Part shown: positions 2,074 through 32,244 of the stretch, in pieces
Layout of the letters: each line of letters starts with the position of its first letter
Position numbering within the stretch: position 1 is the stretch's first letter
From: Candidatus Pacebacteria bacterium CG_4_9_14_0_2_um_filter_40_15
Lineage (GTDB): Bacteria; Patescibacteriota; Microgenomatia; UBA1400; PJMF01
Reading direction: 5' to 3'
DNA: 64,000 nt
NCBI GenBank assembly: GCA_002788675.1
Contig: PFRS01000007.1
Coordinates: 270 to 64,269, forward strand
Translations under genes and position numbers: made by a program
The notes under the pieces: model-generated
What the model was told of the DNA's origin: nothing
The model's database searches: none
Seen by the model: only the letters and a program-made list of their open reading frames with translations

Positions 2074-2123
2074 ATAAATATTTTATTTTGCAGGTTTGTA
2101 TAAAAATGAATTTATATAGTACA

Positions 2124-2283
2124 TGTCGGGGAAACAGGACTCCTCGCTCGCTTCGCTCACTGCGGGATGCTCGTACTGTAGGAGGCTTACGCAATTTATA
2201 ACTCGCATAGCGACCCATAGGTTCAATCCTTTGCTTGCTCCAATACACAAAAAAACCCACCAAAAGGTGGATTTTTTCGTGTG
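2124..2283 (-). repeat. mini-element downstream of tRNA-Pro. Displaced copy of the tRNA-Pro 3' end (2124-2142, 19/19 identical to 2282-2300) is fused to the conserved motif CTCGCTTCGCTCAC (2147-2160, reverse complement of GTGAGCGAAGCGAG)
   Basis: Direct sequence comparison. The duplicated block starts at G57 of the T-loop and runs through the discriminator. The same 14-mer and the same architecture recur after tRNA-Gly. Confidence 0.7.
2250..2278. terminator. bidirectional hairpin plus T/A tracts (cccacc-aaaa-ggtgg-tttttt), terminates tRNA-Pro
   Basis: GC stem CCACC/GGTGG flanked by an A-run and a T-run, immediately 3' of tRNA-Pro on the minus strand. Confidence 0.6.
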
Positions 2284-2357
2284 TCGGGGAAACAGGACTC
2301 GAACCTGCGACCTCACGGTCCCAAACCGCGCACTCTAGCCATCTGAGCTATTCCCCG
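2284..2357 (-). tRNA. tRNA-Pro (anticodon TGG)
   Basis: Reverse complement folds as a cloverleaf. Acceptor stem CGGGGAA/TTCCCCG. D arm GCTC-AGATGGCTA-GAGT. Anticodon stem CGCGG/CCGTG with loop TTTGGGA. T arm GCAGG-TTCGAGT-CCTGT. Discriminator A. No encoded CCA. Confidence 0.85.
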
Positions 2358-2598
2358 AATTGTTATGTAAAGAACAAGATCAAATTATACCGCACTAATG
2401 AGTATTATTCGAGATGGTCTTTTGTACTATGACTCATGGTTGGTATCTTTTCGTAAGATATCTATCAGAGGTCGAGCAGGAATCAAGGCAAGTTTTTGCC
2501 AAAAGGCTTCTTGTTTTTTTTCTTTGTCTCTTCTCTCTTTCCAATCATCAAGATCTTTTTGGGAGATCTCTTGATGAGTTTCTTTTTGAGTCATTGTG

Positions 2599-2682
2599 TG
2601 CCGCGGGTGGGAATCGAACCCACACGATATTGCTATCACGAGATTTTAAGTCTCGCGCGTCTACCAATTCCGCCACCACGGC
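2599..2682 (-). tRNA. tRNA-Leu (anticodon TAA), long variable arm
   Basis: Reverse complement: acceptor GCCGTGG/CCGCGGC, anticodon stem CGAGA/TCTCG with loop CTTAAAA, long variable arm, T arm GTGGG-TTCGATT-CCCAC, discriminator A. No encoded CCA. Confidence 0.85.
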
Positions 2683-2764
2683 TTGTTCACTTTAGAACAC
2701 TCACGATTATATCACCACAATTATCTTACTTGAAGTACAAGGAGAAGTTCTTTAGAATGAAACT

Positions 2765-5700
2765 ATGACTATGGATTCACGGCCTACGGCCGTACATACG
2801 ATCGAAAATACTCCGCCTCCTCCTCAAGAGCAGGAACATCCATTTATGGTTGGTGAACAACTTGGTGTTCTAAAGATTAATAATCCAGGTAGTGTTTTTG
2901 ATGGAATGGAGATTCCAATTCCAAGACAAAGACGAGAATTAAGTCGCAATGTGTCTGAAGCTTTGCTTTCTGAAATGCAGAATCCCGTACAACAACTCTT
3001 GCAGTTAGTGGAGAATGTAACCAATCAATCATTTGCACAAGGAGCTAAAACATATCAAGGTGAAAACAGAAAAATTCTCATACATAAGATACTTGAAAAC
3101 TTGTCTGATTCTCCTAAGTATAGAAAGCTACTCGAAAAATTTGCTAGTGGGAGCAGTGAATTTTCAAAAATAGTTATAAATGCGACTGTGTATATGTTAA
3201 GTAATACCAATTACTTGAAGGCAATTATTGGATTTGTTGTTGATGGTTGGGATAGTTCAAGAGCACCTCGAAGAATTCAAGACTTTGAGGATGCTATGCG
3301 CGAGGCAAGTTGGCAGGTGCAACAAGAACGCGATCCTGGTTTTTACCAGCAAACGCAAGCAGGACACTTTTCAGTTCAAACAGTACTTAATCCAGCAGTG
3401 GCATATGATCTTTTTTCATTTTATCAACTCACACAGCAGACAGAAACAGTGGGCTTAGTGCCCACTGAATCATTTGAATCTGATCATCCAAAGCAAATCC
3501 GACCAGGACAAGATGAAGAAGAGTATAAAAAAGAACAACTCGCACATTTAGAAAGATTGGAGGCTGAAAAGGCTGCTCGAGATGCTGCTGCTGCGCGTCC
3601 ACTTGCTCGTATAAAAAAGAAGCTGCAAGAGGCTGCTAATACATTTTCAGACCAGCAAAAGGAATTTCCTGAAGAGCCAGTGAGACAGGTTACATCTGAA
3701 GAATTTGAAGCAAAAGCTGCTGAGCGTCAACTTTTTGCAAATACCGAAAAACTTAATCGACTGGAAAAGGATTTTAGATCTGCAGTAGTGGGAGTAACCA
3801 TTGCAAATAAGATTGAGCTAATGCGAGAAGCAGCAGAGTTTCTCGAAACAGATTACGGTGAAGAAAAAGCAACACTCACAAGATATGAGCGACTTACAAA
3901 AAAATTAAAAGCAAAGTTATCTGGTAGACATTTTAGTCCTGAGTCAGCCGAAGCATTTTTACGATTACAAGAAGTGTATAAGTTTGATCCAAATAGTGAG
4001 GCTGTTAACCGATTACTTGATCAAGAATTTGGTTTAGATCAGGCTGAGATTACTGCATTAAATAGCACCAGAAATGGACGTAAAGATCTTGAAAAATTAA
4101 TCAGACGTGCTCGTGCAATAGTTACGCATGGTTTTACTAGAGATACCCAACATGGGATTGCTGAAGTTACTTTTGGTAAGGAACCAAGGCATTTTGTTAT
4201 ACTTGTTCATGGAGCACCTTACAAAATTGAATATTACAATAAGGATGGCTTTATAACTCAAGAATTGTTGATCAGAGCAGTACAAAATCTCGAATATACA
4301 CATGCTGATCAAAGTAAAGATCCAGAAGTACTCAAACAGAGACAAGTCATAGCTTCAATCTGGACTGAGTTAAGTTACAATCCTAAAAAAAATGAAATAG
4401 TAACTGATCCTCTTTTGTTAGACCAATTTATCAAAAAGTTTTTGAGGTCTGATTTAAAAAATACATCACAAGTTACACTGCAAATTGCTGATTCAATCAG
4501 GGCATTAATAAGTGCAGACTTTTCTGTCTCTGTGGGGGCAGATGAAGTTCCAGCTTTTGGAGCTGACGATCAAGCTGGGGAAATGCTCTCGTTGGTATTT
4601 GGAGGACAGCACATTGATATTTCAGATAATATTGGGGCGTTTTGTCAGCAATTTCTTGACTCTGATGAGATGAATAATAAACGAACACTATCAAACATTG
4701 CAAATTTTTTTGAAAAAGATAGTTGGGCGACACAATTACTTATAAAGATTAATTCACAATTTGATCATGGTTTGACTGATGGACGGGAAGCTCAAGAGAC
4801 TAATGCGGAATTATTACTGAGGTTATCTCAATATTTGGTAAGTGTGGGCAATGTTGCAGCAAGTAGAAAGATACTTCCAGAAGCACTACTCGCACAAAGT
4901 CTGAGTCTTGGTGTAATTGATGGTGAAATGGTGTTTGATGATGAAAAGGTTATTGCCGAGAATGTACACGAGTACAGTTATTCACTTCCGGACTTGCCCG
5001 AAGCCCTCGTTAACTCACCCAAAGCGTTAACTAAGGAGCTTGATAGAAGTGTCACTATTACTATGGAGAATGAGCTTAGAGATCGACTTGAAGCTATTGA
5101 TAGCATGAGTCTTAGGGAACTTTTTGACGGGGCAGGTACAATGGTTGATCGATTTGTAAATGTAACTGTTGATGTTCAGATGAATGCTATTAGAGAACCT
5201 GCATGGCAAGAACACTTGCGCTTGAATCCAGATATTCCATCCAAGAGTCCCAGGAAAATACAAGTTATCAAAGATACATTTTATATAGATTTGGAGACTG
5301 GTCTTCGAGACACAGTTAAAATTTTTCTAAATGGGGATCATGAGCTCATGAAGGAAGTACAAGAAAAATTACAGCTCAAAAAATATGATTTCTCAGCTGC
5401 GGCTCGGCTGTACGGGGTTGCTGATGTTTCAAAAATTTCTGCTGTTGAATATAGTCGATTTATGGCAGATCGTACTACATTGGCAGGAGAAAGCGATACA
5501 TTTAACATCCTTGCTCAATATGAACAAATTAATACTGTTGCACGAAAAGTAAAACGTAGGCTAACTGCAATTCAAAAACAAAAAAAAGAGGCTGAACATA
5601 CAAGAGATACTATTAGTGATGTTCTTGATATCAAGACTGTTTATGATGAGACTTACGCACGACTTAATTCAACTGAAGAGCAAGATTTATTACAGTTGTT

Positions 5701-6898
5701 AGATGAAATGAATGCGGCCCTTAAGCAAATTAATTTGGTGCTGACTCGATGTCTTTATGATAAAGAATTGTTTGCTACCGATGCCTCTGGGTCAGTGAGA
5801 GAAAGTGATCCGATTATAGCTCAAGTCCACAACCTACAATTAAACAGAATTAGTTCGGTCACCGCAATTCATTATGCTCAACTTATGGCGGACATGATGA
5901 ACATGATGAGTGATGATATGAGGCCTGCATTGCGTAGATTACCCACATCACGTAACATTGCTGAAATTCCTACGAGTAGGCTCGATTTTCACACTATGAC
6001 TGGGTATGCAGAAACAATGTTAAGTATGCAAAGCTTTGCAGAGATTTGGGCTGACACAAATAAAGATAGAACGGATGGGAAAGCACAAGTGCTTGAAGCA
6101 TTTAAGGATATAATTCAAGATTTTGTTGTAAATTATAGTATGCAGTTTCAAATAGGTGTTGATCAGGCACGAAAGCAAGTCAGTGATACGTCAGTATTAT
6201 CTGCTGGTACTAACAGATTTACTCAGTGGTTACTGGAAGTTTCTTTGCAATACACGGGTCTCACCGGGGTACTGGCTCAACAGCGCACGGGCAATATGAT
6301 TTCAGTGGTAGATTCAAATCCCGGTGTTGCTGGAGGGTATAGTTTACTGAGTCTGAGTGAAGGAGAGATGAGTGAAGCCGAGCATCTTACTGCGGTTTTA
6401 AATAGCAGCCATGGTCAAGATTCATTTCATACAGCTGGATCAAAAAATGTTGGTACTGCTATGGGAGTTACTCGAGTACACGATGGGGAAAATTCTCATT
6501 ATGCCTTTAAAGGTCGTAAGGCTGTCACTGATCAGCATCTAGATCAAATTGCCATGGCCATGCTGGGAGTAGAACGAAATGTAGCACGAGAATTAGTTGA
6601 AGGTATAAAACCTGGGTATTACTTTAATCAGCTGACTGTGCCGCAGCGCCGAGAGGCTCTCCATACAGCTAAGAGTGAGCTGGTTGAACAAACTAAATCT
6701 ATGTATTACTGGTACTTCTTTATTAACGTTATTACTAAAATGGATATGAATCAGGTGGGAACAAGGTATGATGAATGGGTGGTATCGGAAAGTTCACTCT
6801 CATTTATTAAATATGTTATGGAACAGGAACTGCCAAAGTATAACTTGAGTGAAGAGGCTATGGATTTCTATCAAAATGGTCCTAGATTGAACGCCTAG
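2765..6898 (+). CDS. giant orphan protein (1377 aa). No signal peptide, no P-loop, coiled-coil rich, no recognisable domain
   Basis: Single 4.1-kb ORF with no sizeable competing ORFs. Flanked by tRNA-Leu upstream and tRNA-Gly 30 bp downstream. Confidence 0.7.
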   Translation: MTMDSRPTAVHTIENTPPPPQEQEHPFMVGEQLGVLKINNPGSVFDGMEIPIPRQRRELSRNVSEALLSEMQNPVQQLLQLVENVTNQSFAQGAKTYQGENRKILIHKILENLSDSPKYRKLLEKFASGSSEFSKIVINATVYMLSNTNYLKAIIGFVVDGWDSSRAPRRIQDFEDAMREASWQVQQERDPGFYQQTQAGHFSVQTVLNPAVAYDLFSFYQLTQQTETVGLVPTESFESDHPKQIRPGQDEEEYKKEQLAHLERLEAEKAARDAAAARPLARIKKKLQEAANTFSDQQKEFPEEPVRQVTSEEFEAKAAERQLFANTEKLNRLEKDFRSAVVGVTIANKIELMREAAEFLETDYGEEKATLTRYERLTKKLKAKLSGRHFSPESAEAFLRLQEVYKFDPNSEAVNRLLDQEFGLDQAEITALNSTRNGRKDLEKLIRRARAIVTHGFTRDTQHGIAEVTFGKEPRHFVILVHGAPYKIEYYNKDGFITQELLIRAVQNLEYTHADQSKDPEVLKQRQVIASIWTELSYNPKKNEIVTDPLLLDQFIKKFLRSDLKNTSQVTLQIADSIRALISADFSVSVGADEVPAFGADDQAGEMLSLVFGGQHIDISDNIGAFCQQFLDSDEMNNKRTLSNIANFFEKDSWATQLLIKINSQFDHGLTDGREAQETNAELLLRLSQYLVSVGNVAASRKILPEALLAQSLSLGVIDGEMVFDDEKVIAENVHEYSYSLPDLPEALVNSPKALTKELDRSVTITMENELRDRLEAIDSMSLRELFDGAGTMVDRFVNVTVDVQMNAIREPAWQEHLRLNPDIPSKSPRKIQVIKDTFYIDLETGLRDTVKIFLNGDHELMKEVQEKLQLKKYDFSAAARLYGVADVSKISAVEYSRFMADRTTLAGESDTFNILAQYEQINTVARKVKRRLTAIQKQKKEAEHTRDTISDVLDIKTVYDETYARLNSTEEQDLLQLLDEMNAALKQINLVLTRCLYDKELFATDASGSVRESDPIIAQVHNLQLNRISSVTAIHYAQLMADMMNMMSDDMRPALRRLPTSRNIAEIPTSRLDFHTMTGYAETMLSMQSFAEIWADTNKDRTDGKAQVLEAFKDIIQDFVVNYSMQFQIGVDQARKQVSDTSVLSAGTNRFTQWLLEVSLQYTGLTGVLAQQRTGNMISVVDSNPGVAGGYSLLSLSEGEMSEAEHLTAVLNSSHGQDSFHTAGSKNVGTAMGVTRVHDGENSHYAFKGRKAVTDQHLDQIAMAMLGVERNVARELVEGIKPGYYFNQLTVPQRREALHTAKSELVEQTKSMYYWYFFINVITKMDMNQVGTRYDEWVVSESSLSFIKYVMEQELPKYNLSEEAMDFYQNGPRLNA

Positions 6899-6927
6899 TT
6901 GCAGGTATAATTCGGGGTGTTAAGAGC

Positions 6928-6999
6928 GCGGGTATAGTACAACGGCTAGTATGACTGCCTTCCAAGCAGTAGATGGCGGTTCGATTCCGCTTACCCGCT
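6928..6999 (+). tRNA. tRNA-Gly (anticodon TCC)
   Basis: Acceptor GCGGGTA/TACCCGC. D stem GTAC/GTAT. Anticodon stem ACTGC/GCAGT with loop CTTCCAA. T arm GGCGG-TTCGATT-CCGC. Discriminator T. Confidence 0.85.
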
Positions 7000-7201
7000 C
7001 AGAAATGAAAATAGGCCGTCAGGCCTCTTTTTATTTCTGAATGGTGTAGATACGGAACTAATCTAGCGAGATGAATATCGAGCTAAGTTCTGACGGAGAG
7101 TGCGATAGCACCCGCCTAATGCATGTGAGCGAAGCGAGTCGTAGATTCCGCTTACCCGCTCAGAAAATAAAAAAGGCCGTGAGGCCTGTTTTTATTTTAG
7201 A
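7000..7201 (+). repeat. mini-element downstream of tRNA-Gly. About 103 bp of unique sequence (7041-7143) ends in GTGAGCGAAGCGAG (7125-7138). It is followed by a ~58-bp imperfect direct repeat (7144-7201) of the tRNA-Gly 3' end plus its terminator (6983-7040)
   Basis: 23/23 identity between 6983-7005 and 7144-7166. The second hairpin ggccgtgaggcc + tttttatttt is a near copy of the first with compensatory changes. Confidence 0.75.
7011..7040 (+). terminator. rho-independent terminator after tRNA-Gly (aggccgtcaggcct + ctttttatttc)
   Basis: Perfect GC hairpin followed by a T-run. Confidence 0.65.
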
Positions 7202-7914
7202 AGTTCTAACACTTTTTCTTCTGGCAGCTCAATGTATTTTTCACCATCTAAGTCACCAATATCAAATGGTCCCATTTTTGTGCGAACAAGTTCAATAGTG
7301 TCGTATCCTACTCTCTCAGTCATACGGCGAATTTGTCTGTTTCTGCCTTCTGTAATGGTTATTTCAATCCAGGTTTGGTTTTCTTCATGTGACAAAACAG
7401 TAACCTCTGCTGGTTTTGTGTAGCCATCTTTGAGTTTGACGCCTCTTCTGAGGTGATCAAGCGCTAAATTGGTGGGTTTACTACTGAGAAGAACTTCATA
7501 GGTTTTTGCTATTTCGTATCTTGGGTGAGTAAGTGTGTGAGCTAGCTCTCCATTATTGGTAACTAGCATAAGGCCTTCACTCTCTTGGTCAAGTCGTCCA
7601 ACTGGATAAACGCGTTCAGTTATTTTTGGTATGAGTTCAAGAACAGTTTTTCTGCCAACTTCATCTGAAGTAGTTGAAATATATCCCACTGGTTTATTTA
7701 TCAGAAAATAACGATGTTTTTGAGGTGCTGAGATAGGTTTTCCGTCGATTGAAACTTTGTCTTTGTGAGGGTTTACGCGTTGACCAATTTTTGCAACAGA
7801 ACCATTTACTGTTACGACTCCAGTTTCAATAAGAGCCTCGGATTTTCTTCGTGAAGCAATGCCAGCTCTAGCAAGGAAGAGTTGCAGCTTGATTGTTGAT
7901 GTATTGCTCGTCAT
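7192..7914 (-). CDS. 16S/23S rRNA pseudouridine synthase, RsuA/RluB family (S4 domain + PseudoU_synth_2)
   Basis: N-terminal S4-like RNA-binding region plus the catalytic motif region YPVGRLDQESEGLMLVTNNGELAH, typical of the RluB/RsuA family. Confidence 0.85.
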   Translation of the reverse strand: MTSNTSTIKLQLFLARAGIASRRKSEALIETGVVTVNGSVAKIGQRVNPHKDKVSIDGKPISAPQKHRYFLINKPVGYISTTSDEVGRKTVLELIPKITERVYPVGRLDQESEGLMLVTNNGELAHTLTHPRYEIAKTYEVLLSSKPTNLALDHLRRGVKLKDGYTKPAEVTVLSHEENQTWIEITITEGRNRQIRRMTERVGYDTIELVRTKMGPFDIGDLDGEKYIELPEEKVLELLK

Positions 7915-8617: not shown

Positions 8618-9688
8618 ATGAAAACATGGCAAAAGCTAGCTGTCTCAAATGCAGCAATCAGACCTTTCAAGATACGAGAAACGGTACTGGATACTATTAG
8701 ATCCTTTTTTAAAAAAGAGGGTTTTTTAGAAGTTGAAACTCCCCTTCTCTGTGAAAACCCAGGGACTGAGCCATATCTTGAGGTTTTTAAAACGACACTC
8801 AAAGCACAAAACTTTTCAGATAGACCTGGTTTTTTAGTTACGAGTCCTGAACTTTTTATGAAAAAATTGTTGGCTGCTGGAGTTGGTAGCTGTTTTCAAA
8901 TTTGTAAAAGTTTTAGAAACGAAGAAGGTGTGAGTGCCTTTCATAATCATGAATTCACTATTTTAGAGTGGTACCATGTTGATGCAGATTATACTGACGT
9001 GATGACTGATTGTGAGAATTTGTTGCTACGAATTCTTAGAACAGTTTCAGGGGATGAGACTGCCATTATTTTAACATATCAAGGCAAGGAATATGATCTT
9101 TCCCCAGGATGGGAGAGAATTTCTGTTGCTGAAGCATTCAAAAAATATGCAAACGTGGACATTGATGAACTTCTCACTGAAGAGTCATTACTCAAAATTG
9201 GACAGGAAAAAGGATATTCAGTTACAGAAACAACTGACTGGGAGGAAATCTATAACCAAATTTTTCTTAATGAAATTGAACCAAATTTAGGTAAAGCAAA
9301 GCCAACTATTATTTATGAGTATCCTGCTTCTCAAGCAGCACTTTCAAAACGCAAAGAATCTGATCCACGATTTGCTGAGCGCTTTGAGTTCTATATAGGA
9401 GGATTAGAGTTGGGAAATGCATTTTCAGAATTAACCGACTCTGATGAACAACGAGCTAGAATGCAGGAAGACCTTGAGATGCGAAAAAAAATGGATAAGT
9501 ATTCATACACCTTGGATGAAGACTTTTTTACAGCACTCAAAATGGGACTACCACGTACCGGTGGTATTGCTGTTGGTGTTGATAGATTAGTGATGCTTTT
9601 TGCAGATGTTGCATCTGTGCGTGAAACGCTTTTCTTTCCTATTAATGAAGTCTTTGATTTTTCTGTGACTGAATCTGATAAAAAATAA
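8618..9688 (+). CDS. epmA: EF-P lysyl-lysine ligase EpmA (PoxA), a truncated class II LysRS paralog
   Basis: Class II aaRS motifs (FRNEE, GLELGNAFSEL, GGIAVGVDRLVMLF) without an anticodon-binding domain; lies directly upstream of efp. Confidence 0.8.
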   Translation: MKTWQKLAVSNAAIRPFKIRETVLDTIRSFFKKEGFLEVETPLLCENPGTEPYLEVFKTTLKAQNFSDRPGFLVTSPELFMKKLLAAGVGSCFQICKSFRNEEGVSAFHNHEFTILEWYHVDADYTDVMTDCENLLLRILRTVSGDETAIILTYQGKEYDLSPGWERISVAEAFKKYANVDIDELLTEESLLKIGQEKGYSVTETTDWEEIYNQIFLNEIEPNLGKAKPTIIYEYPASQAALSKRKESDPRFAERFEFYIGGLELGNAFSELTDSDEQRARMQEDLEMRKKMDKYSYTLDEDFFTALKMGLPRTGGIAVGVDRLVMLFADVASVRETLFFPINEVFDFSVTESDKK

Positions 9689-9711
9689 AACCAATGATAT
9701 AATACTACTCT

Positions 9712-10278
9712 ATGTCTATCGTCAAAGCCGGAAACATTCGAAAAGGGATGTACCTACTCCATAAAGATCAACCTTACTATGTCACTCATACTGATTTTAT
9801 GAGTCCAGGAAAAGGCTCAGCATTCATGCGAGTAAAGTATCGTAATGTGATTACTGGTAATACTGAAGAATTTACCTATAAGTCAAGTGAATCTGTTGAA
9901 GAAGCTGAAATTCAAAGTACTCAAATGCAGTTCTTGTATGTTGATGGCAGTGACTCAGTTTTTATGGATAACAATACGTATGAGCAAGTTGAAATTCCAA
10001 CTGTTATGCTTGAAGATAAGCAGGGACTTTTAACACCTGATATTCAAGTATATGTTATGTTTTACAATGGAAAAGCACTCGGTGTTTCACTCCCTCCAAA
10101 AGTTCGCCTTAAAGTTACCTATGCTGAAGAAGCTACAGCTGGAAATACACAAGGTCAAGCTCGAAAAATGGTTACACTTGAAACTGGACTAGAAATTTCA
10201 GCTCCAATCTTTGTAAAAGAAGGTGACACACTTGTTATCGACACCGATACAGTAAGTTACGTTTCTCGAGCTAACTAA
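9712..10278 (+). CDS. efp: elongation factor P
   Basis: Typical EF-P N-terminus MSIVKAGNIRKGM. The conserved loop SPGKGSAFMRVK carries the modifiable Lys. Three OB-domain length. Confidence 0.9.
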   Translation: MSIVKAGNIRKGMYLLHKDQPYYVTHTDFMSPGKGSAFMRVKYRNVITGNTEEFTYKSSESVEEAEIQSTQMQFLYVDGSDSVFMDNNTYEQVEIPTVMLEDKQGLLTPDIQVYVMFYNGKALGVSLPPKVRLKVTYAEEATAGNTQGQARKMVTLETGLEISAPIFVKEGDTLVIDTDTVSYVSRAN

Positions 10279-15704: not shown

Positions 15705-17081
15705 ATGGGACTTTTTTTATTTTTAGTTTCACTCTTTTCAGCTGTTGGGTTTATGCTTACGTTGTTAGGATTTTGGGGCTGGTTGCCCAGCTTTTTTTTG
15801 TACCTACTCTTTAGTGTCTTTCTTGTTGTCCCAGTTAGTATTCTCTATCGTCTCTTTCTTTTTATTCCTCAATTATCAAAAAATGAGAGAGTATTTCTAT
15901 TTGTTATACTTACTATTTGGTTTGGACATTTTATACAAGTCCTTGTGCCTGAAACAGGGTTTGATGCGCTCTGGTATCACTTGCCAGTAGTTGAACATAT
16001 TTTATCTATTGGTAAAATTACGTATCTCCCTGAGTTATATCAAACCATGAATCCCCTCTTTGCGGATATGTATTTTTTAGTGGGCTACTTTGTTGCTGGA
16101 TCAGTAGGCGCAAAGCTAGTTGCATATCTCTTTGGAATGATGTTGGCTGCAACTACCTATTTTGTAGCGCGTTTCTTTTTACGTAGAGATTTGTCATTAC
16201 TTGTTGTAGCAACTGTATCACTCTTTCAGGTGGTGGCTTGGCAATCTAGTAGTTTTTATGTTGACGTGGCTAAAGCATTTTTTGAGCTAGCTGGTCTTCT
16301 AGCTATATTGAATGTTTCAAAGAAATCAACACGGTTTTTATTATTAGCAGCCCTGCTCTTTTCAGCAAGTTTAGCAACAAAAATGTTTTCACTGTTTTTA
16401 GTGCCACTTTTCTTGGGAATTCTTTGGAGCAGTTGGAAAGAAAGAAAGTTGAAAGTGAGTTTCTTTGTTGTTTTAGTTGTTGTTCTTTTTGTATGTGCGC
16501 TACCCTATTATCTAGGAGCATGGAGGTATACGGGTAATCCTGTATTTTCTTTAGTGGTTCCACTGGCTATCTTGGGTGAAATTGGTGGGTCTGGTTCAGT
16601 TGTGGGGTATGTGCTAAGAAGAATAAAGTTAAGCCCGTTACTATTTGTTACATTACTCTTTGCTAGAGATTATGTTCCGCCACTTACTCTTTTGGCAGTT
16701 ATCCCAATAGCTAAACGGTTCAAAGATATTTCTCGTGATTATACATTAAAGTTACTTGGAGTATTTTCGTTTTATCAGCTTGGAATTTGGTGGTTTGTGC
16801 CACCATTTTCAACTAGGTATGCGTTGTCTGGGTTTATTACACTCTTTTTGCTTGGAGTAATCGTTGTTGATCGGTACTTTGTACATACAAAAAGGCAACG
16901 ATTTGTGTTTATGGTTATGCTTTGCCTACAGATAGCAGTCTTGTCGATTCCCAGAGTTATTGTGGCCGGAAGGAGTCTAACCTATTTACTTACAGCACAA
17001 ACTCAACGTGAGTATCTACAGCAGTTCTATGATGGAACGATTGACGATAAAATTAATGATTGGTACTATCCAAAAAAATAA
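15705..17081 (+). CDS. polytopic membrane protein, GT-C-like (ArnT/PMT-type glycosyltransferase fold suspected)
   Basis: 458 aa with more than 10 TM segments. Its arrangement resembles undecaprenyl/dolichyl-phosphate-dependent glycosyltransferases, but there is no decisive motif. Confidence 0.45.
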   Translation: MGLFLFLVSLFSAVGFMLTLLGFWGWLPSFFLYLLFSVFLVVPVSILYRLFLFIPQLSKNERVFLFVILTIWFGHFIQVLVPETGFDALWYHLPVVEHILSIGKITYLPELYQTMNPLFADMYFLVGYFVAGSVGAKLVAYLFGMMLAATTYFVARFFLRRDLSLLVVATVSLFQVVAWQSSSFYVDVAKAFFELAGLLAILNVSKKSTRFLLLAALLFSASLATKMFSLFLVPLFLGILWSSWKERKLKVSFFVVLVVVLFVCALPYYLGAWRYTGNPVFSLVVPLAILGEIGGSGSVVGYVLRRIKLSPLLFVTLLFARDYVPPLTLLAVIPIAKRFKDISRDYTLKLLGVFSFYQLGIWWFVPPFSTRYALSGFITLFLLGVIVVDRYFVHTKRQRFVFMVMLCLQIAVLSIPRVIVAGRSLTYLLTAQTQREYLQQFYDGTIDDKINDWYYPKK

Positions 17082-30141: not shown

Positions 30142-32244
30142 TTAGTCGTTTTTTGAAAAGACAGAAATCAAAAACTCAAAGTGCTCATCAGCAGTTTTAC
30201 CAATAAGTTGCAAACCCTCTTCAATATCTTCTCTACTTACATTGGCAGCAAACGCTTTAGTTTTAAGTTTTTTCTTGATTGATTTTGATTTCATACCCTC
30301 AAGACCAGTTGGGCGAAGTAGTGAAACGGCATTAATGAAACCAGAAATTTCGTCACAGGCAAAGAGGTAGCGGTCCAATGTTGTGATTGGATCACGTCCA
30401 GTTCTAGATGGAGCATGTGCCGCAATAGCATCAAGCATGGCTTGTGGGTACGCTGTTAAGATTTCATTGATGGCTTTATTTGGATGTTCGTCGGGGTACA
30501 TTTCCCAGTCTAGATCGTGGAGCAAACCAGTTTGGTACCAGAGTTCTTCATCCTCACCAAGTTCTTTTGCGTAAGCAGTCATAGCTTGAGCGACCATGCG
30601 TGAGTGGTTGCGTAGTGCTTCATCTGAAATATACTTTTCCAAAAGTGCTGTTGCAGCTTCTCTAGAGGGCATTTCTACAGAATCTGCTTTTTTCTCTGTT
30701 GAAGCATTTTTACCTGTGATATGCAGTGGAACAAGTGGGCGTAGCGTTGGAAAGGCAATCACCTCTTTAATACTCCAAGTGTTAGTAAGGAACATGACTA
30801 AACGGTCAATTCCCATTCCAATTCCACCAAGTGGTGGCATACCATGTTCCATAGCTTCAAGGAAGTCTTCATCAAGTGGATGAGCCTCGGTGTCACCATG
30901 AAGCATATTTGCTTGTTCATTTTCCCAGATGTTTCGTTGATCGACTGCGTCGACAATCTCACTCCAACCATCGGCAAGCTCTTTCCCTCCTATATAGGCT
31001 TCAAAGCGTTCTGCAAATTCTGGTTGGGTGCGATGTTGTTTTGCTAATGGAGAAATGTCACGTGGGTAGTCGACAATCCAAATTGGTGCGATTAAATGAG
31101 GAGTGACTAGTTCATCAAAGAGCTCAAATAATGCTTTACCTCTGGTGAACTCGCTTTTTAGTTCAATTCTGTGGGTTTTCATGAGTGCTTTCACTTCTTC
31201 GTCTGAAAGAGAGTCAAAGTCGATATTTGCGTGTTGTTTAAGTGCTTCATCCATTCGTACTCGAGGCCAGTCACCAGCAATATCAATGATTTTTTCACCA
31301 ACGGTAATCTCATGGTTACCGTAGAGTTTAAAGGTGAGGTGTTTAACCAGAGCTTCTGCTACATTCATCATGCGAGTGTAGTCTGCATAGGTCTCGTACC
31401 ATTCGATCATAGTGAACTCAGGTTGATGGGTTTGATCAATACCCTCATTGCGGAAGTTGCGGGCAATCTCAAAGACTCTATCGTAACCACCTACAATTAG
31501 CCGTTTTAAGTAGAGTTCTGGAGCGATGCGTAGGTAGAAATCACTATCAAGTGCATCCATGTGAGTGGTAAATGGAGTTGCATTTGTGCCGCCATATAAA
31601 GGTTGTAAGATTGGCGTTTCAACTTCAATAAAATCATGTTGATCTTGAAGAAACCGACGGATCTCTTTTTCAATTAACCAGCGAGCATCAAGAATTCTTT
31701 TTGTGTCTGGATTAATGAGCATGTCGACGTATCGTTTTCTAAAACGAACTTCTTTATTATCTGCTGCATTAAAGGCTGTTGGAATTGGTCGAAGTGCTTT
31801 AGAAAGCATCTGAAACTCAGTTGCTAAGATGGTTAGTTCTCCAGTTTTTGTGGTCATTACGGTACCAGACACTCCTAGATAATCACCTCGGTCGACTAAT
31901 GTTTTTAGCCACTCGAATGCTTTGGAATCAACTTCAGCTTCTCGTACCATTACTTGGATATTGGTTGTAGAGTCTTGTAGATCAAGAAACACAACTTTTC
32001 CATGTGCTCTGATGGACATGATGCGACCAGCAGTTTGAACTGATTGATCCATCATTTCTCGAACTTGAGCAATAGTAAACTTCTTATCAAAGAAATGAGG
32101 ATGCACAGTAATACCTTGTGCTTCTAATTGAGCTCTTTTATCTTTTTTTGCTTGAATTGTTTCGTCCATTCGCGACATGCCGGCGGTCCTTTTTGTGCTT
32201 TGTACTGCTTTATTTTGATTAATTTGTGCGTCTTGATTATACAT
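30142..32244 (-). CDS. lysS: lysyl-tRNA synthetase (class II) fused to a ~190-aa C-terminal HD-domain-like extension
   Basis: LysRS OB-fold plus the catalytic motifs FRNEGIDQTHQPEFTMIEWY and GGIGMGIDRLVMFL. The C-terminal tail contains H...LLHDLDW...H, typical of HD phosphohydrolases. Confidence 0.85.
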   Translation of the reverse strand: MYNQDAQINQNKAVQSTKRTAGMSRMDETIQAKKDKRAQLEAQGITVHPHFFDKKFTIAQVREMMDQSVQTAGRIMSIRAHGKVVFLDLQDSTTNIQVMVREAEVDSKAFEWLKTLVDRGDYLGVSGTVMTTKTGELTILATEFQMLSKALRPIPTAFNAADNKEVRFRKRYVDMLINPDTKRILDARWLIEKEIRRFLQDQHDFIEVETPILQPLYGGTNATPFTTHMDALDSDFYLRIAPELYLKRLIVGGYDRVFEIARNFRNEGIDQTHQPEFTMIEWYETYADYTRMMNVAEALVKHLTFKLYGNHEITVGEKIIDIAGDWPRVRMDEALKQHANIDFDSLSDEEVKALMKTHRIELKSEFTRGKALFELFDELVTPHLIAPIWIVDYPRDISPLAKQHRTQPEFAERFEAYIGGKELADGWSEIVDAVDQRNIWENEQANMLHGDTEAHPLDEDFLEAMEHGMPPLGGIGMGIDRLVMFLTNTWSIKEVIAFPTLRPLVPLHITGKNASTEKKADSVEMPSREAATALLEKYISDEALRNHSRMVAQAMTAYAKELGEDEELWYQTGLLHDLDWEMYPDEHPNKAINEILTAYPQAMLDAIAAHAPSRTGRDPITTLDRYLFACDEISGFINAVSLLRPTGLEGMKSKSIKKKLKTKAFAANVSREDIEEGLQLIGKTADEHFEFLISVFSKND

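What the first reader, a model, noticed from the sequence alone, without database searches (positions are those of the whole stretch)
2122..7201. Two tRNA-linked mini-elements point outward and bracket a 5-kb block holding tRNA-Pro, tRNA-Leu, a 1377-aa orphan ORF and tRNA-Gly
On the plus strand the block is bounded by inverted copies of the 14-mer, CTCGCTTCGCTCAC at 2147-2160 and GTGAGCGAAGCGAG at 7125-7138. Inside it, the giant ORF is the only protein gene and sits between tRNA genes. The symmetric arrangement suggests a hotspot of integration and recombination. Alternatively the inverted 14-mers act as terminal inverted repeats of a composite island that delivered the giant gene.
Basis: partly seen in the sequence, partly recalled or inferred. 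Interest (0 to 1): 0.65.

Follow-up and report, generated by a model that had tools for sequence, protein, structure and literature searches.

The report
tRNA-linked repeat modules, not island ends
The two "mini-elements" are small structured non-coding modules that sit just after a tRNA gene and end in a copy of that tRNA's last 19 bases, like the long-known but unexplained tRNA-linked repeats of E. coli, here in a candidate-phyla-radiation bacterium; they did not bring in the giant gene between them.

Summary
In detail: the 14-mer, the three tRNAs and the 1377-aa ORF lie at the stated coordinates. The composite-island reading fails. The giant ORF sits between tRNA-Leu and tRNA-Gly in every relative that covers the site, including those without the Gly-side element. 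Its GC content and codon usage are typical of the window.

Each mini-element has the same layout: tRNA, intrinsic terminator, about 85 nt of body, a hairpin (the 14-mer), 4-5 nt, then an exact 19-nt copy of that tRNA's 3' end starting in the T-loop. This is the hallmark of E. coli tRNA-linked repeats (TLRs; Rfam RtT).

Eight Pro-side copies from five related Patescibacteria genomes share four helices with compensatory changes. They are as conserved as, or more conserved than, nearby protein-coding genes. In most copies the 5' part pairs with the repeated tRNA end, giving an acceptor/T-arm-like minihelix as in RtT. The Rfam RtT model itself does not match.

Relatives carry one to four or more such modules after tRNA-Pro, often with unrelated cargo genes in between and no recombinase gene in sight. 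The Gly-side module is found only in the window's lineage.

Best reading: TLR-like trailer RNAs co-transcribed with the tRNA. Their repeats also make the tRNA-Pro trailer a variable hotspot. Function is unknown.

The parts
2283..2357 (-). tRNA-Pro(UGG); its last 19 nt (2282-2300, from the T-loop to the discriminator plus CA) form repeat copy 1
   Evidence: ARAGORN; Rfam tRNA 61.7 bits; direct repeat D11
2249..2278 (-). intrinsic terminator directly after tRNA-Pro (stem 2257-2270, bidirectional)
   Evidence: sequence; same hairpin in L001, L003, L014, L065, L091
2143..2248 (-). Pro-side TLR-like module body. It comprises the 5' strand of closing helix P1 (2225-2243), hairpin H1, and long-range helix H2 (2201-2208 with 2167-2174, containing a tandem G.A). 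It ends in a terminal stem-loop (2142-2165) whose inner hairpin is the 14-mer plus C (2146-2160).
   Evidence: RNAalifold and pair counts on 8 copies; covariance model R1 117 bits; H2 and hairpin tables; P1
2124..2142 (-). exact 19-nt copy of the tRNA-Pro 3' end (repeat copy 2), the 3' end of the module
2427..2594 (-). conserved 55-aa ORF between tRNA-Leu and tRNA-Pro (context, not part of the modules)
   Evidence: sequence; homologous ORFs in L002/L003, L014, L020
2598..2682 (-). tRNA-Leu(UAA), no linked module
2765..6898 (+). 1377-aa lineage-restricted ORF, vertically inherited at this site and unrelated to the modules
6928..7000 (+). tRNA-Gly(UCC); its last 19 nt plus one base (6983-7001) form repeat copy 1
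7013..7036 (+). first terminator (T1) after tRNA-Gly
7037..7143 (+). Gly-side TLR-like module body. It comprises a P1 5' strand complementary to the Gly 3' end (7039-7059), helix H2 (7064-7072 with 7077-7085, the same GC-GA/GA-GC core), an extra hairpin (7100-7111), and the terminal hairpin, which is the 14-mer plus T (7125-7139).
7144..7162 (+). exact 19-nt copy of the tRNA-Gly 3' end (repeat copy 2)
   Evidence: D1
7174..7198 (+). second terminator (T2). It is homologous to T1, bidirectional, and overlaps the stop codon of the convergent pseudouridine synthase gene (7192-7914, -).

Best explanation
Both mini-elements are tRNA-linked repeat (TLR)-type modules: small non-coding units in the trailer of a tRNA gene, on the tRNA strand.

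I infer that each is derived from its tRNA. A 5' strand resembling the acceptor and T-stem 5' strands pairs with an exact copy of the tRNA's last 19 nt, giving an acceptor/T-arm-like minihelix. About 80 nt of structured insert replaces the T-loop. That insert contains a hairpin, a long-range helix with a tandem G.A, and a terminal GNA-triloop hairpin, which is the 14-mer.

The most likely working, inferred by analogy with E. coli TLRs, is as follows. The module is transcribed with the tRNA by read-through of the leaky first terminator; on the Gly side it lies between two terminators. It is then released by the nucleases that process tRNA ends, because it repeats the tRNA's 3' processing context, and yields a stable structured RNA of unknown role.

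As a side effect, the repeated tRNA ends are direct repeats and possible secondary attachment sites. This would explain why the tRNA-Pro trailer of relatives holds arrays of modules interleaved with unrelated cargo genes.

The giant ORF is an ancestral, fast-evolving, lineage-specific gene that merely lies between two divergently oriented tRNA genes.
For: Shown:
- Both elements have the same anatomy, and the 19-nt repeat starts at the same T-loop position in each.
- This matches the published hallmark of E. coli TLRs: the last 18-19 bp are identical to the 3' end of the upstream tRNA or rRNA gene, with 1-5 copies per locus. The rrn members lie between dual terminators and are made by read-through (PMC8144298). 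I reproduced the repeat on E. coli tyrT/tyrV.
- Structure is conserved. Across 8 Pro-side copies, 18 pairs are 94% paired against 26-38% when the partners are slid. Eight pairs show compensatory double changes, and 0 of 500 shuffles reach the observed values.
- Helix H2 keeps an invariant GC-GA/GA-GC core with covarying flanking pairs in all types, including the Gly element. The 14-mer hairpin is kept through G-C to C-G swaps, and in L003 the tandem G.A is replaced by two U-A pairs.
- G.U pairs and the alifold energy favour the tRNA-sense strand: -8.8 against -5.8 kcal/mol.
- Module bodies are 70-89% identical between genomes whose RluB and EF-P genes are 66-80% identical at the DNA level.
- The 5' strand pairs best with its own tRNA end in 9 of 15 modules when tested against 7 tRNA ends, including the Gly module and E. 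coli RtT. The Rfam RtT consensus has the same outer helix.
- No integrase or transposase domain was found in the window or in any cargo gene.
Against: No expression data exist, so transcription, read-through and processing are inferred only.

Neither covariance model crosses between the two groups. The Rfam RtT model does not match the window at E <= 10, and my model R1 does not match E. coli TLRs. Membership therefore rests on architecture, not on detectable homology.

Closing helix P1 is weak or absent in type B copies and some type A copies. It shows no covariation within the Pro family, because its 3' side is invariant. The single-sequence fold of the Pro module is no more stable than shuffled sequence, z = +0.1.

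The structure was derived from only 8 related sequences falling into two main clades. Cargo genes lying between modules in relatives fit site-specific integration at least as well as they fit an RNA gene.
Confidence: 0.55

Rival explanations
1. The modules are relics or miniature non-autonomous derivatives (CIME-like) of elements that integrate by site-specific recombination into the T-loop to 3' end of tRNA genes. Each integration supplies a new tRNA 3' end plus terminator and displaces the old one. Repeated integrations build arrays. The conserved body and hairpin are the arm of the attachment site.
For: - Direct repeats of the tRNA 3' part starting in the T-loop are the classic attL/attR signature.
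- On the Gly side the repeat extends through a similar but not identical terminator (88% over 59 nt), as expected if the incoming DNA carried its own copy.
- The Gly element is present only in the window's lineage.
- Relatives hold arrays with unrelated cargo genes between repeats (L003, L018, L091, L014). This matches the tandem integrations and partial-tRNA remnants described for Prochlorococcus tycheposon islands (bioRxiv 10.1101/2020.12.28.424599).
Against: - No integrase, excisionase or recombinase fragment was found in any of five arrays or in the 64-kb window.
- No free element carrying the junction was found in 2.9 million viral contigs.
- A 140-bp double-stranded circle is an implausible recombination substrate.
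- Strand-specific compensatory changes in four helices, and conservation above that of coding genes, are not expected of decaying att arms.
- E. coli TLRs also follow 5S rRNA genes, which are not integrase targets.
- This rival does not exclude the best explanation: module repeats may serve as secondary attachment sites.
Confidence: 0.25
2. Composite island: the inverted 14-mers are terminal inverted repeats of a 5-kb mobile block that delivered the giant ORF and the tRNAs.
For: Only the inverted orientation of the exact 14-mer pair.
Against: - The giant ORF and the tRNA-Pro/Leu/Gly order are conserved in L001, L002/L003, L014 and L018, and in part in L008, L009, L012, L015-L017, L019 and L020. 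None of these has the Gly-side 14-mer.
- The giant ORF shows no compositional deviation.
- The 14-mers lie inside larger homologous modules whose orientation is set by their tRNA.
Confidence: 0.02
3. Guide-type element: the structured body is a scaffold, and the 3' 19 nt (or its complement) acts as a guide that directs a trans-acting RNA-guided or hairpin-recognising enzyme to the tRNA gene. The invariant GGTTCG of the T-loop would serve as an adjacent motif that the element's own copy lacks.
For: - The layout is a structured scaffold followed directly by about 19 nt matching a nearby target, with re-targeting from Pro to Gly while the hairpin is kept.
- The base before the repeat differs from the tRNA context in every copy.
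- Cargo-bearing arrays exist in relatives.
Against: - No TnpB, IscB, Cas, IS110-type or HUH gene was found in any locus examined.
- In most copies the 19 nt are paired within the module's own closing helix, which is not the behaviour of a free guide.
- E. coli TLRs have the same layout, and no such system has been reported for them.
Confidence: 0.05
4. Neutral by-product: chance local duplications of tRNA trailers by replication slippage or unequal crossing-over, with no function and no mobility.
For: Short direct repeats promote tandem duplication. Some copies are clearly decaying: the L014 second copy, the L018 Ea core and the L003 E4 core.
Against: - The same 14-mer and the same H2 motif occur in modules behind two different tRNAs whose bodies are otherwise not significantly similar.
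- There are compensatory changes.
- Identity exceeds that of essential coding genes.
- The insert has no counterpart in unoccupied trailers.
Confidence: 0.08

Closest known systems
E. coli tRNA-linked repeats (TLRs; Egan and Landy 1978; Rudd 1999), including RttR/RtT RNA of the tyrT operon (Rfam RF00391) and the rrn-linked RrA/RrB/RrF sRNAs (PMC8144298)
   Same: - Both lie immediately downstream of a stable-RNA gene on the same strand.
- The last 18-19 nt are identical to the 3' end of that gene and start at the same T-loop position (E. coli Tyr AATCC..., here AGTCC... and ATTCC...).
- There are 1-5 copies per locus.
- The rrn members and the Gly module lie between two terminators.
- An outer helix pairs the 5' part with the repeated 3' end.
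- GNA-triloop hairpins and a tandem G.A helix lie shortly before the repeat.
   Different: - There is no detectable homology. RF00391 scores 133-137 bits on E. coli but nothing on the window, and R1 scores nothing on E. coli.
- CCA is not encoded here.
- The unit is 158-161 nt, against 178 nt in E. coli.
- The host is a Patescibacteria (CPR) bacterium.
- In relatives the copies are interleaved with protein-coding cargo genes, whereas the E. coli tyrT copies are head to tail.
tRNA-anchored genomic islands built by repeated site-specific integration (Prochlorococcus tycheposons and their remnants; CIME/ICE accretion in streptococci, the latter from my own knowledge)
   Same: Partial tRNA 3' repeats separate successive inserts behind one tRNA gene. 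Cargo differs between close lineages. Degenerate repeats are scattered further out (compared).
   Different: No integrase or integrase remnant is present. Units can be as small as 120-160 bp with no gene. Each repeat is preceded by a conserved, covarying structured module, which has not been described for those islands.
Integron cassette arrays (attC-bounded cassettes)
   Same: This is a resemblance of layout only. Small cassettes of 0-2 genes, mostly co-oriented, each end in a 100-140-nt element conserved in structure more than in sequence, followed by a short invariant core.
   Different: - No intI gene is present.
- The core is a 19-nt tRNA end and not GTTRRRY.
- The structured element is a multi-helix fold and not a single imperfect palindrome.
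- The anchor is a tRNA gene and not attI.

Membership tests
tRNA-linked repeats (TLR / RtT-like) | Located immediately downstream of a tRNA or rRNA gene, on the same strand | tested here: met
   Both modules start right after the tRNA and its terminator
tRNA-linked repeats (TLR / RtT-like) | The last 18-19 bp are identical to the 3' end of the upstream stable-RNA gene (PMC8144298) | tested here: met
   Exact 19-nt repeats for Pro and Gly. The same holds in L001, L003, L014, L018, L065 and L091. E. coli control.
tRNA-linked repeats (TLR / RtT-like) | One to several copies per locus | tested here: met
   The window has 1 per tRNA. L003 has 4, L091 at least 4, and L018 and L014 have 2 each
tRNA-linked repeats (TLR / RtT-like) | An outer helix between the 5' part of the unit and the repeated 3' end (Rfam RtT consensus structure) | tested here: inconclusive
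   The own tRNA end is the best partner in 9 of 15 modules. Cells are 81% paired against 39-62% when slid. The helix is weak in type B and several type A copies, and shows no covariation within the family
tRNA-linked repeats (TLR / RtT-like) | Match to the Rfam RtT covariance model RF00391 (homology) | tested here: not met
   No hit at the gathering score or at E <= 10. The positive control on E. coli scores 133-137 bits.
tRNA-linked repeats (TLR / RtT-like) | Transcribed within the tRNA primary transcript and processed to a discrete RNA | not testable with these tools
   No expression data. Only the dual-terminator layout on the Gly side is visible.
Integrase-mediated integrated element (attL/attR at a tRNA gene) | The element is flanked by a direct repeat of the tRNA 3' part | tested here: met
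Integrase-mediated integrated element (attL/attR at a tRNA gene) | A tyrosine or serine recombinase gene, or its remnant, lies in or next to the element | tested here: not met
   No such Pfam domain in the window ORFs scanned or in the cargo ORFs of L091, L018 and L003 that were scanned, nor among the precomputed Pfam domains of called genes in the other loci
Integrase-mediated integrated element (attL/attR at a tRNA gene) | Occupied and empty sites exist among relatives | tested here: met
   The Gly site is empty in L001, L002, L008, L009, L012, L014-L020 and occupied only in the window. For Pro no clearly empty site was seen; L020 is cut off 84 nt after the tRNA.
Integrase-mediated integrated element (attL/attR at a tRNA gene) | A free or phage-borne copy carries the attP junction | tested here: not met
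   Viral-contig scans returned only chance matches inside coding DNA
Composite transposon or island bounded by terminal inverted repeats | The whole block is absent from the homologous site of relatives that lack the repeats | tested here: not met
   The block is present in all relatives, with or without the 14-mers
Composite transposon or island bounded by terminal inverted repeats | Cargo is compositionally distinct from the host | tested here: not met
   GC, GC3 and codon usage of 2765-6898 fall within the range of core genes
Known RNA families (Rfam 15) | Any covariance-model match over the modules | tested here: not met
   Only the tRNAs match. All other hits are far below gathering scores.

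The most novel reading that the evidence does not exclude
The modules are tRNA-mimicking mobile units that seed and extend gene-cassette arrays in recombinase-poor CPR genomes. The repeated tRNA end, together with its structured hairpin module, acts as the recombination or guide site at which new cassettes are captured behind tRNA-Pro, and the unit can re-target to another tRNA such as Gly. This would be a tRNA-anchored, integron-like or guide-directed gene-capture system, and it would also give E. coli TLRs a mechanism of origin.
Probability: 0.12. Interest if true: 0.8.

Novelty: new variant of a known kind. Interest (0 to 1): 0.45.

Why it matters
TLRs were first described in E. coli in 1978, and most still have no known function or origin (PMC8144298).

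This finding shows units of the same architecture in a Patescibacteria lineage. They have no detectable sequence homology to E. coli TLRs, show compensatory base changes, and are conserved above the level of neighbouring coding genes.

That suggests the layout is a recurrent, selected solution and not an enterobacterial curiosity: a tRNA-like minihelix capped by the 3' end of the upstream tRNA and carrying a structured insert.

The arrays interleaved with cargo genes link this class of RNA module to genome plasticity at tRNA genes in small, mobile-element-poor genomes.

For the scan itself, the result removes a false lead: the giant ORF is not island cargo.

Tried and rejected
1. Rfam at gathering and permissive thresholds on the window and three loci found only tRNAs.

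2. I scanned 2.9 million viral contigs for hairpin-plus-core junctions, for both Pro and Gly. Only chance hits inside genes came back.

3. The one metagenome scan gave 69 hits. Of these, 67 were chance matches in high-GC contigs and only L065 and L091 were real.

4. The one genome-collection scan, using the RluB-like protein as query, found only one close relative, which is identical to L002.

5. I looked for an integrase or transposase by Pfam across window ORFs and cargo ORFs and found none.

6. I considered and dropped on inspection of the sequence: hammerhead-like motifs (CUGANGA), a K-turn, a group II intron 5' end, IS200/IS605 or IS91 ends, a retroviral-type primer-binding site, and a split-tRNA half. 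None of these motifs or required partners is present.

7. The antisense-RNA idea rested on a promoter-like TTGCAG-18-TATATA upstream of 2124 on the + strand. It is not conserved in relatives, the scan did not list it, and the fold favours the sense strand.

8. Sequence similarity between the Gly and Pro bodies outside the 14-mer is not significant (p = 0.15-0.6).

9. The function of the giant ORF could not be determined:
   - Pfam gave only a sub-threshold DUF3053 hit.
   - NCBIfam gave nothing.
   - A PDB profile search gave nothing.
   - An exhaustive search of 1.84 billion representatives gave 4 hits, all close relatives or fragments.
   - AlphaFold2 on two conserved segments with 3-sequence alignments gave pLDDT of about 42, so no fold search was run.

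10. I fetched the NCBI MAG of the same organism (L096) to look for an element-free allele, but it has a run of N exactly over the Gly module.


Full report
**Observation.** All coordinates hold.
- tRNA-Pro(UGG) is at 2283-2357(-), tRNA-Leu(UAA) at 2598-2682(-) and tRNA-Gly(UCC) at 6928-7000(+).
- The 1377-aa ORF is at 2765-6898(+).
- GTGAGCGAAGCGAG occurs only at 2147-2160(-) and 7125-7138(+), even with two mismatches allowed; 0.14 matches are expected by chance.

Each element has the same order of parts: full tRNA, intrinsic terminator, 84-87 nt of body, the 14-mer, 4-5 nt, then an exact 19-nt copy of the tRNA's own 3' end. That copy begins at the same T-loop position on both sides: GAGTCC... 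for Pro with a spacing of 158 nt, and GATTCC... for Gly with a spacing of 161 nt. On the Gly side the repeat continues through a second, homologous terminator (59 nt, 88% identical). The 14-mers are inverted only because the two tRNA genes are divergent.

**Organism and context.** The window is core chromosome of a Patescibacteria (CPR) bacterium. The pseudouridine synthase gene at 7192-7914 is 100% identical to a protein from an NCBI 'Candidatus Pacebacteria' MAG, and its relatives carry Pacebacteria, Woesebacteria or Patescibacteria labels. The rest of the window encodes ATP synthase, SecA, aminoacyl-tRNA synthetases, pyruvate kinase, EF-P and similar proteins. No integrase or transposase domain was found.

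**The composite-island idea fails.**
- The giant ORF had only two homologues in the 5.8-billion-protein search. An exhaustive search of 1.84 billion representatives found four proteins, all close relatives or fragments. It is therefore a true lineage-restricted orphan.
- It is nevertheless ancestral at this site. Homologues of 37-58% identity lie between tRNA-Leu and tRNA-Gly, next to the same RluB-metallophosphoesterase-EpmA-EF-P block, in L001, L002/L003, L008, L009, L012, L014-L019. A 1165-aa ORF occupies the same position in L020.
- None of these loci has a Gly-side element.
- Its GC (0.390), GC3 (0.275) and codon-usage distance (0.113) match those of long core genes such as SecA.
- Its function remains unknown.

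**The modules in relatives.** Every locus that reaches the tRNA-Pro trailer has at least one Pro-side module.
- Window, L001 and L065 have one each.
- L014 has one plus a truncated second copy behind an aminoglycoside-phosphotransferase-like gene.
- L018 has two, with 4.6 kb of cargo between them; the outer copy carries the exact 14-mer.
- L003 has four, with a 112-aa ORF, a GNAT gene and a DUF218 gene in between.
- L091 has at least four, with deaminase/cytidylyltransferase, WD40-like, DUF2087 and HAD genes.

Cargo differs in every lineage, and none of it is a recombinase. The tRNA-Pro trailer is therefore a hypervariable site.

**Conservation and structure.**
- Module bodies are 70-82% identical between genomes whose RluB and EF-P genes are only 66-80% identical at the DNA level. 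L001 and L003-E3 are 89% identical, against 70-76% for those genes.
- RNAalifold on eight copies gives four helices with 18 pairs. Cells are 94% paired against 26-38% when the partners are slid. Eight pairs show compensatory double changes, and none of 500 shuffles reaches the observed values. The caveat is that the structure was derived from these same sequences.
- The terminal hairpin is the 14-mer itself: G-C, U.G, tandem G.A/A.G, G-C, C-G, and a GAA loop. It is kept by G-C to C-G swaps in type B. In L003-E2 two U-A pairs replace the G.A pairs, giving GCUUGC-AAA-GCAAGC.
- Long-range helix H2 has an invariant GC-GA/GA-GC core and covarying flanking pairs (A-U, G-C and U-A at the same position). 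It is present in every type, including the Gly module at 7064-7085.
- G.U pairs and the consensus energy favour the tRNA-sense strand, at -8.8 against -5.8 kcal/mol.
- Apart from these motifs the Gly and Pro bodies are not significantly similar in sequence. The shared 14-mer and H2 core are therefore constrained features, not recent copies.

**Identification.** The literature search brought up the E. coli tRNA-linked repeats. [quoted passage not shown] There are 22 TLRs at ten loci, one to five per locus. [quoted passage not shown] The function of most is unknown (PMC8144298).

I fetched the E. coli tyrT/tyrV locus. The tRNA-Tyr end recurs every 178 nt, starting at the same T-loop position, and is preceded by GNA-triloop hairpins and a UC-GA-GC...GC-GA-GA hairpin. 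Rfam RtT (RF00391) hits these copies at 133-137 bits. Its consensus has an outer helix in which GGGGAAGGA pairs with the repeated UCCUUCCCC.

The same closing helix can be drawn in the CPR modules:
- Type A: UUGG(A/G)G-C-AAGCA-AA-GG(A/G)YU pairs with AGUCC-UGUUU-CCCC-GA.
- Type C: UUGGG...ACAGGAC pairs with GUCCUGU...CCCCGA (p < 0.01 against shuffles).
- Gly module: 7039-7059 pairs with its own Gly end.

Tested against seven tRNA ends, the module's own end is the best partner in 9 of 15 modules, including the Gly module and E. coli RtT. The helix is weak in type B and several type A copies, so I rate it as moderately supported.

Read this way, each module is a tRNA-derived acceptor/T-arm minihelix whose T-loop is replaced by an insert of about 80 nt. 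This last step is inference from the sequences.

RF00391 does not match the window and my model R1 does not match E. coli. The relation is therefore one of kind, not of demonstrable homology.

**Mechanism.**
- Shown: the anatomy, the conservation, the covariation, the presence/absence pattern, the absence of recombinase genes nearby, and the identity of the hallmark with TLRs.
- Inferred: co-transcription with the tRNA by terminator read-through, release by tRNA-end processing enzymes, and a role as a stable RNA.

The main rival is that the modules are miniature relics of integrase-type elements, as in tycheposon islands where successive integrations leave partial tRNAs. That rival explains the cargo-bearing arrays and the non-identical second terminator on the Gly side. 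It does not explain the strand-specific compensatory changes, the high conservation, the 140-bp size or the lack of any recombinase. The two readings can be combined: the repeated tRNA ends of TLR modules may serve as recombination sites.

I keep a guide-type or integron-like capture system as the most novel reading not excluded, at about 12%.

**Verdict.** The composite-island interpretation is refuted, and the hotspot interpretation is partly right for the tRNA-Pro trailer only. The elements are a new, structurally conserved variant of the known but unexplained TLR class, found in a distant phylum. Interest is moderate: ordinary as regards the giant gene, and of real interest to people working on tRNA-linked RNAs and CPR genome plasticity.

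Noticed in passing
window 2427-2594 (-): A 55-aa ORF (MTQKETHQEISQKDLDDWKERRDKEKKQEAFWQKLALIPARPL...) lies between tRNA-Leu and tRNA-Pro on the tRNA strand. Homologous small ORFs occupy the same spacer in L002/L003, L014, L020 and L096. L001 lacks it and has a 71-nt spacer.
   Followed up: partly
L003 18745-18782 and 19335-19380; L091 about 6470-6500 and 5490-5520; L018 about 15895-15920: Cargo cassettes in the tRNA-Pro arrays of relatives end in short conserved 'pseudo-core' blocks that finish in ...CCGACA. Each is followed by a terminator and a full module. They may be degenerate tRNA-end copies or mini-helices.
   Followed up: partly
L096 10713-10786 (NCBI GCA_009995335.1, same organism as the window): The public MAG has a run of N exactly over the 3' half of tRNA-Gly and the Gly-side module. 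The giant ORF is called there as two genes (656 and 611 aa). The direct repeat probably broke the assembly, and strain heterogeneity cannot be excluded.
   Followed up: partly
L071 8467-8496 and L073 410-439 (high-GC metagenome contigs): CGAGCGAAGC followed by AGTCCTGTTTCCCCGACATG gives a 20-nt match to the Pro repeat plus its flank, inside what looks like coding DNA of an unrelated organism at 61-63% GC. Probably chance, but unexplained.
   Followed up: no
window 7001-7200, compared with L001 14200-15003, L008 3963-4766 and L009 862-1686: The closest relatives carry an inositol-monophosphatase gene between the pseudouridine synthase gene and tRNA-Gly. The window lacks that gene and has the Gly-side module at that spot.
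   Followed up: no
window 30142-32244 (-): A class II aminoacyl-tRNA synthetase (Asp/Lys/Asn type, with an OB anticodon-binding domain) is fused to a C-terminal HD phosphohydrolase domain, 700 aa in all.
   Followed up: no
window 8618-10278 (+): An EpmA/PoxA-like truncated class II synthetase paralogue (356 aa) lies directly upstream of EF-P. The pair is conserved in all relatives of this CPR clade.
   Followed up: no
L097 (E. coli K-12 1286709-1287236): E. coli TLR units share local motifs with the CPR modules although the covariance models do not cross-match. These motifs are AAGGTTCG, a UC-GA-GC/GC-GA-GA hairpin, and GNA-triloop hairpins followed by GAGUA and the repeat starting at T-loop position A58.
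   Followed up: partly
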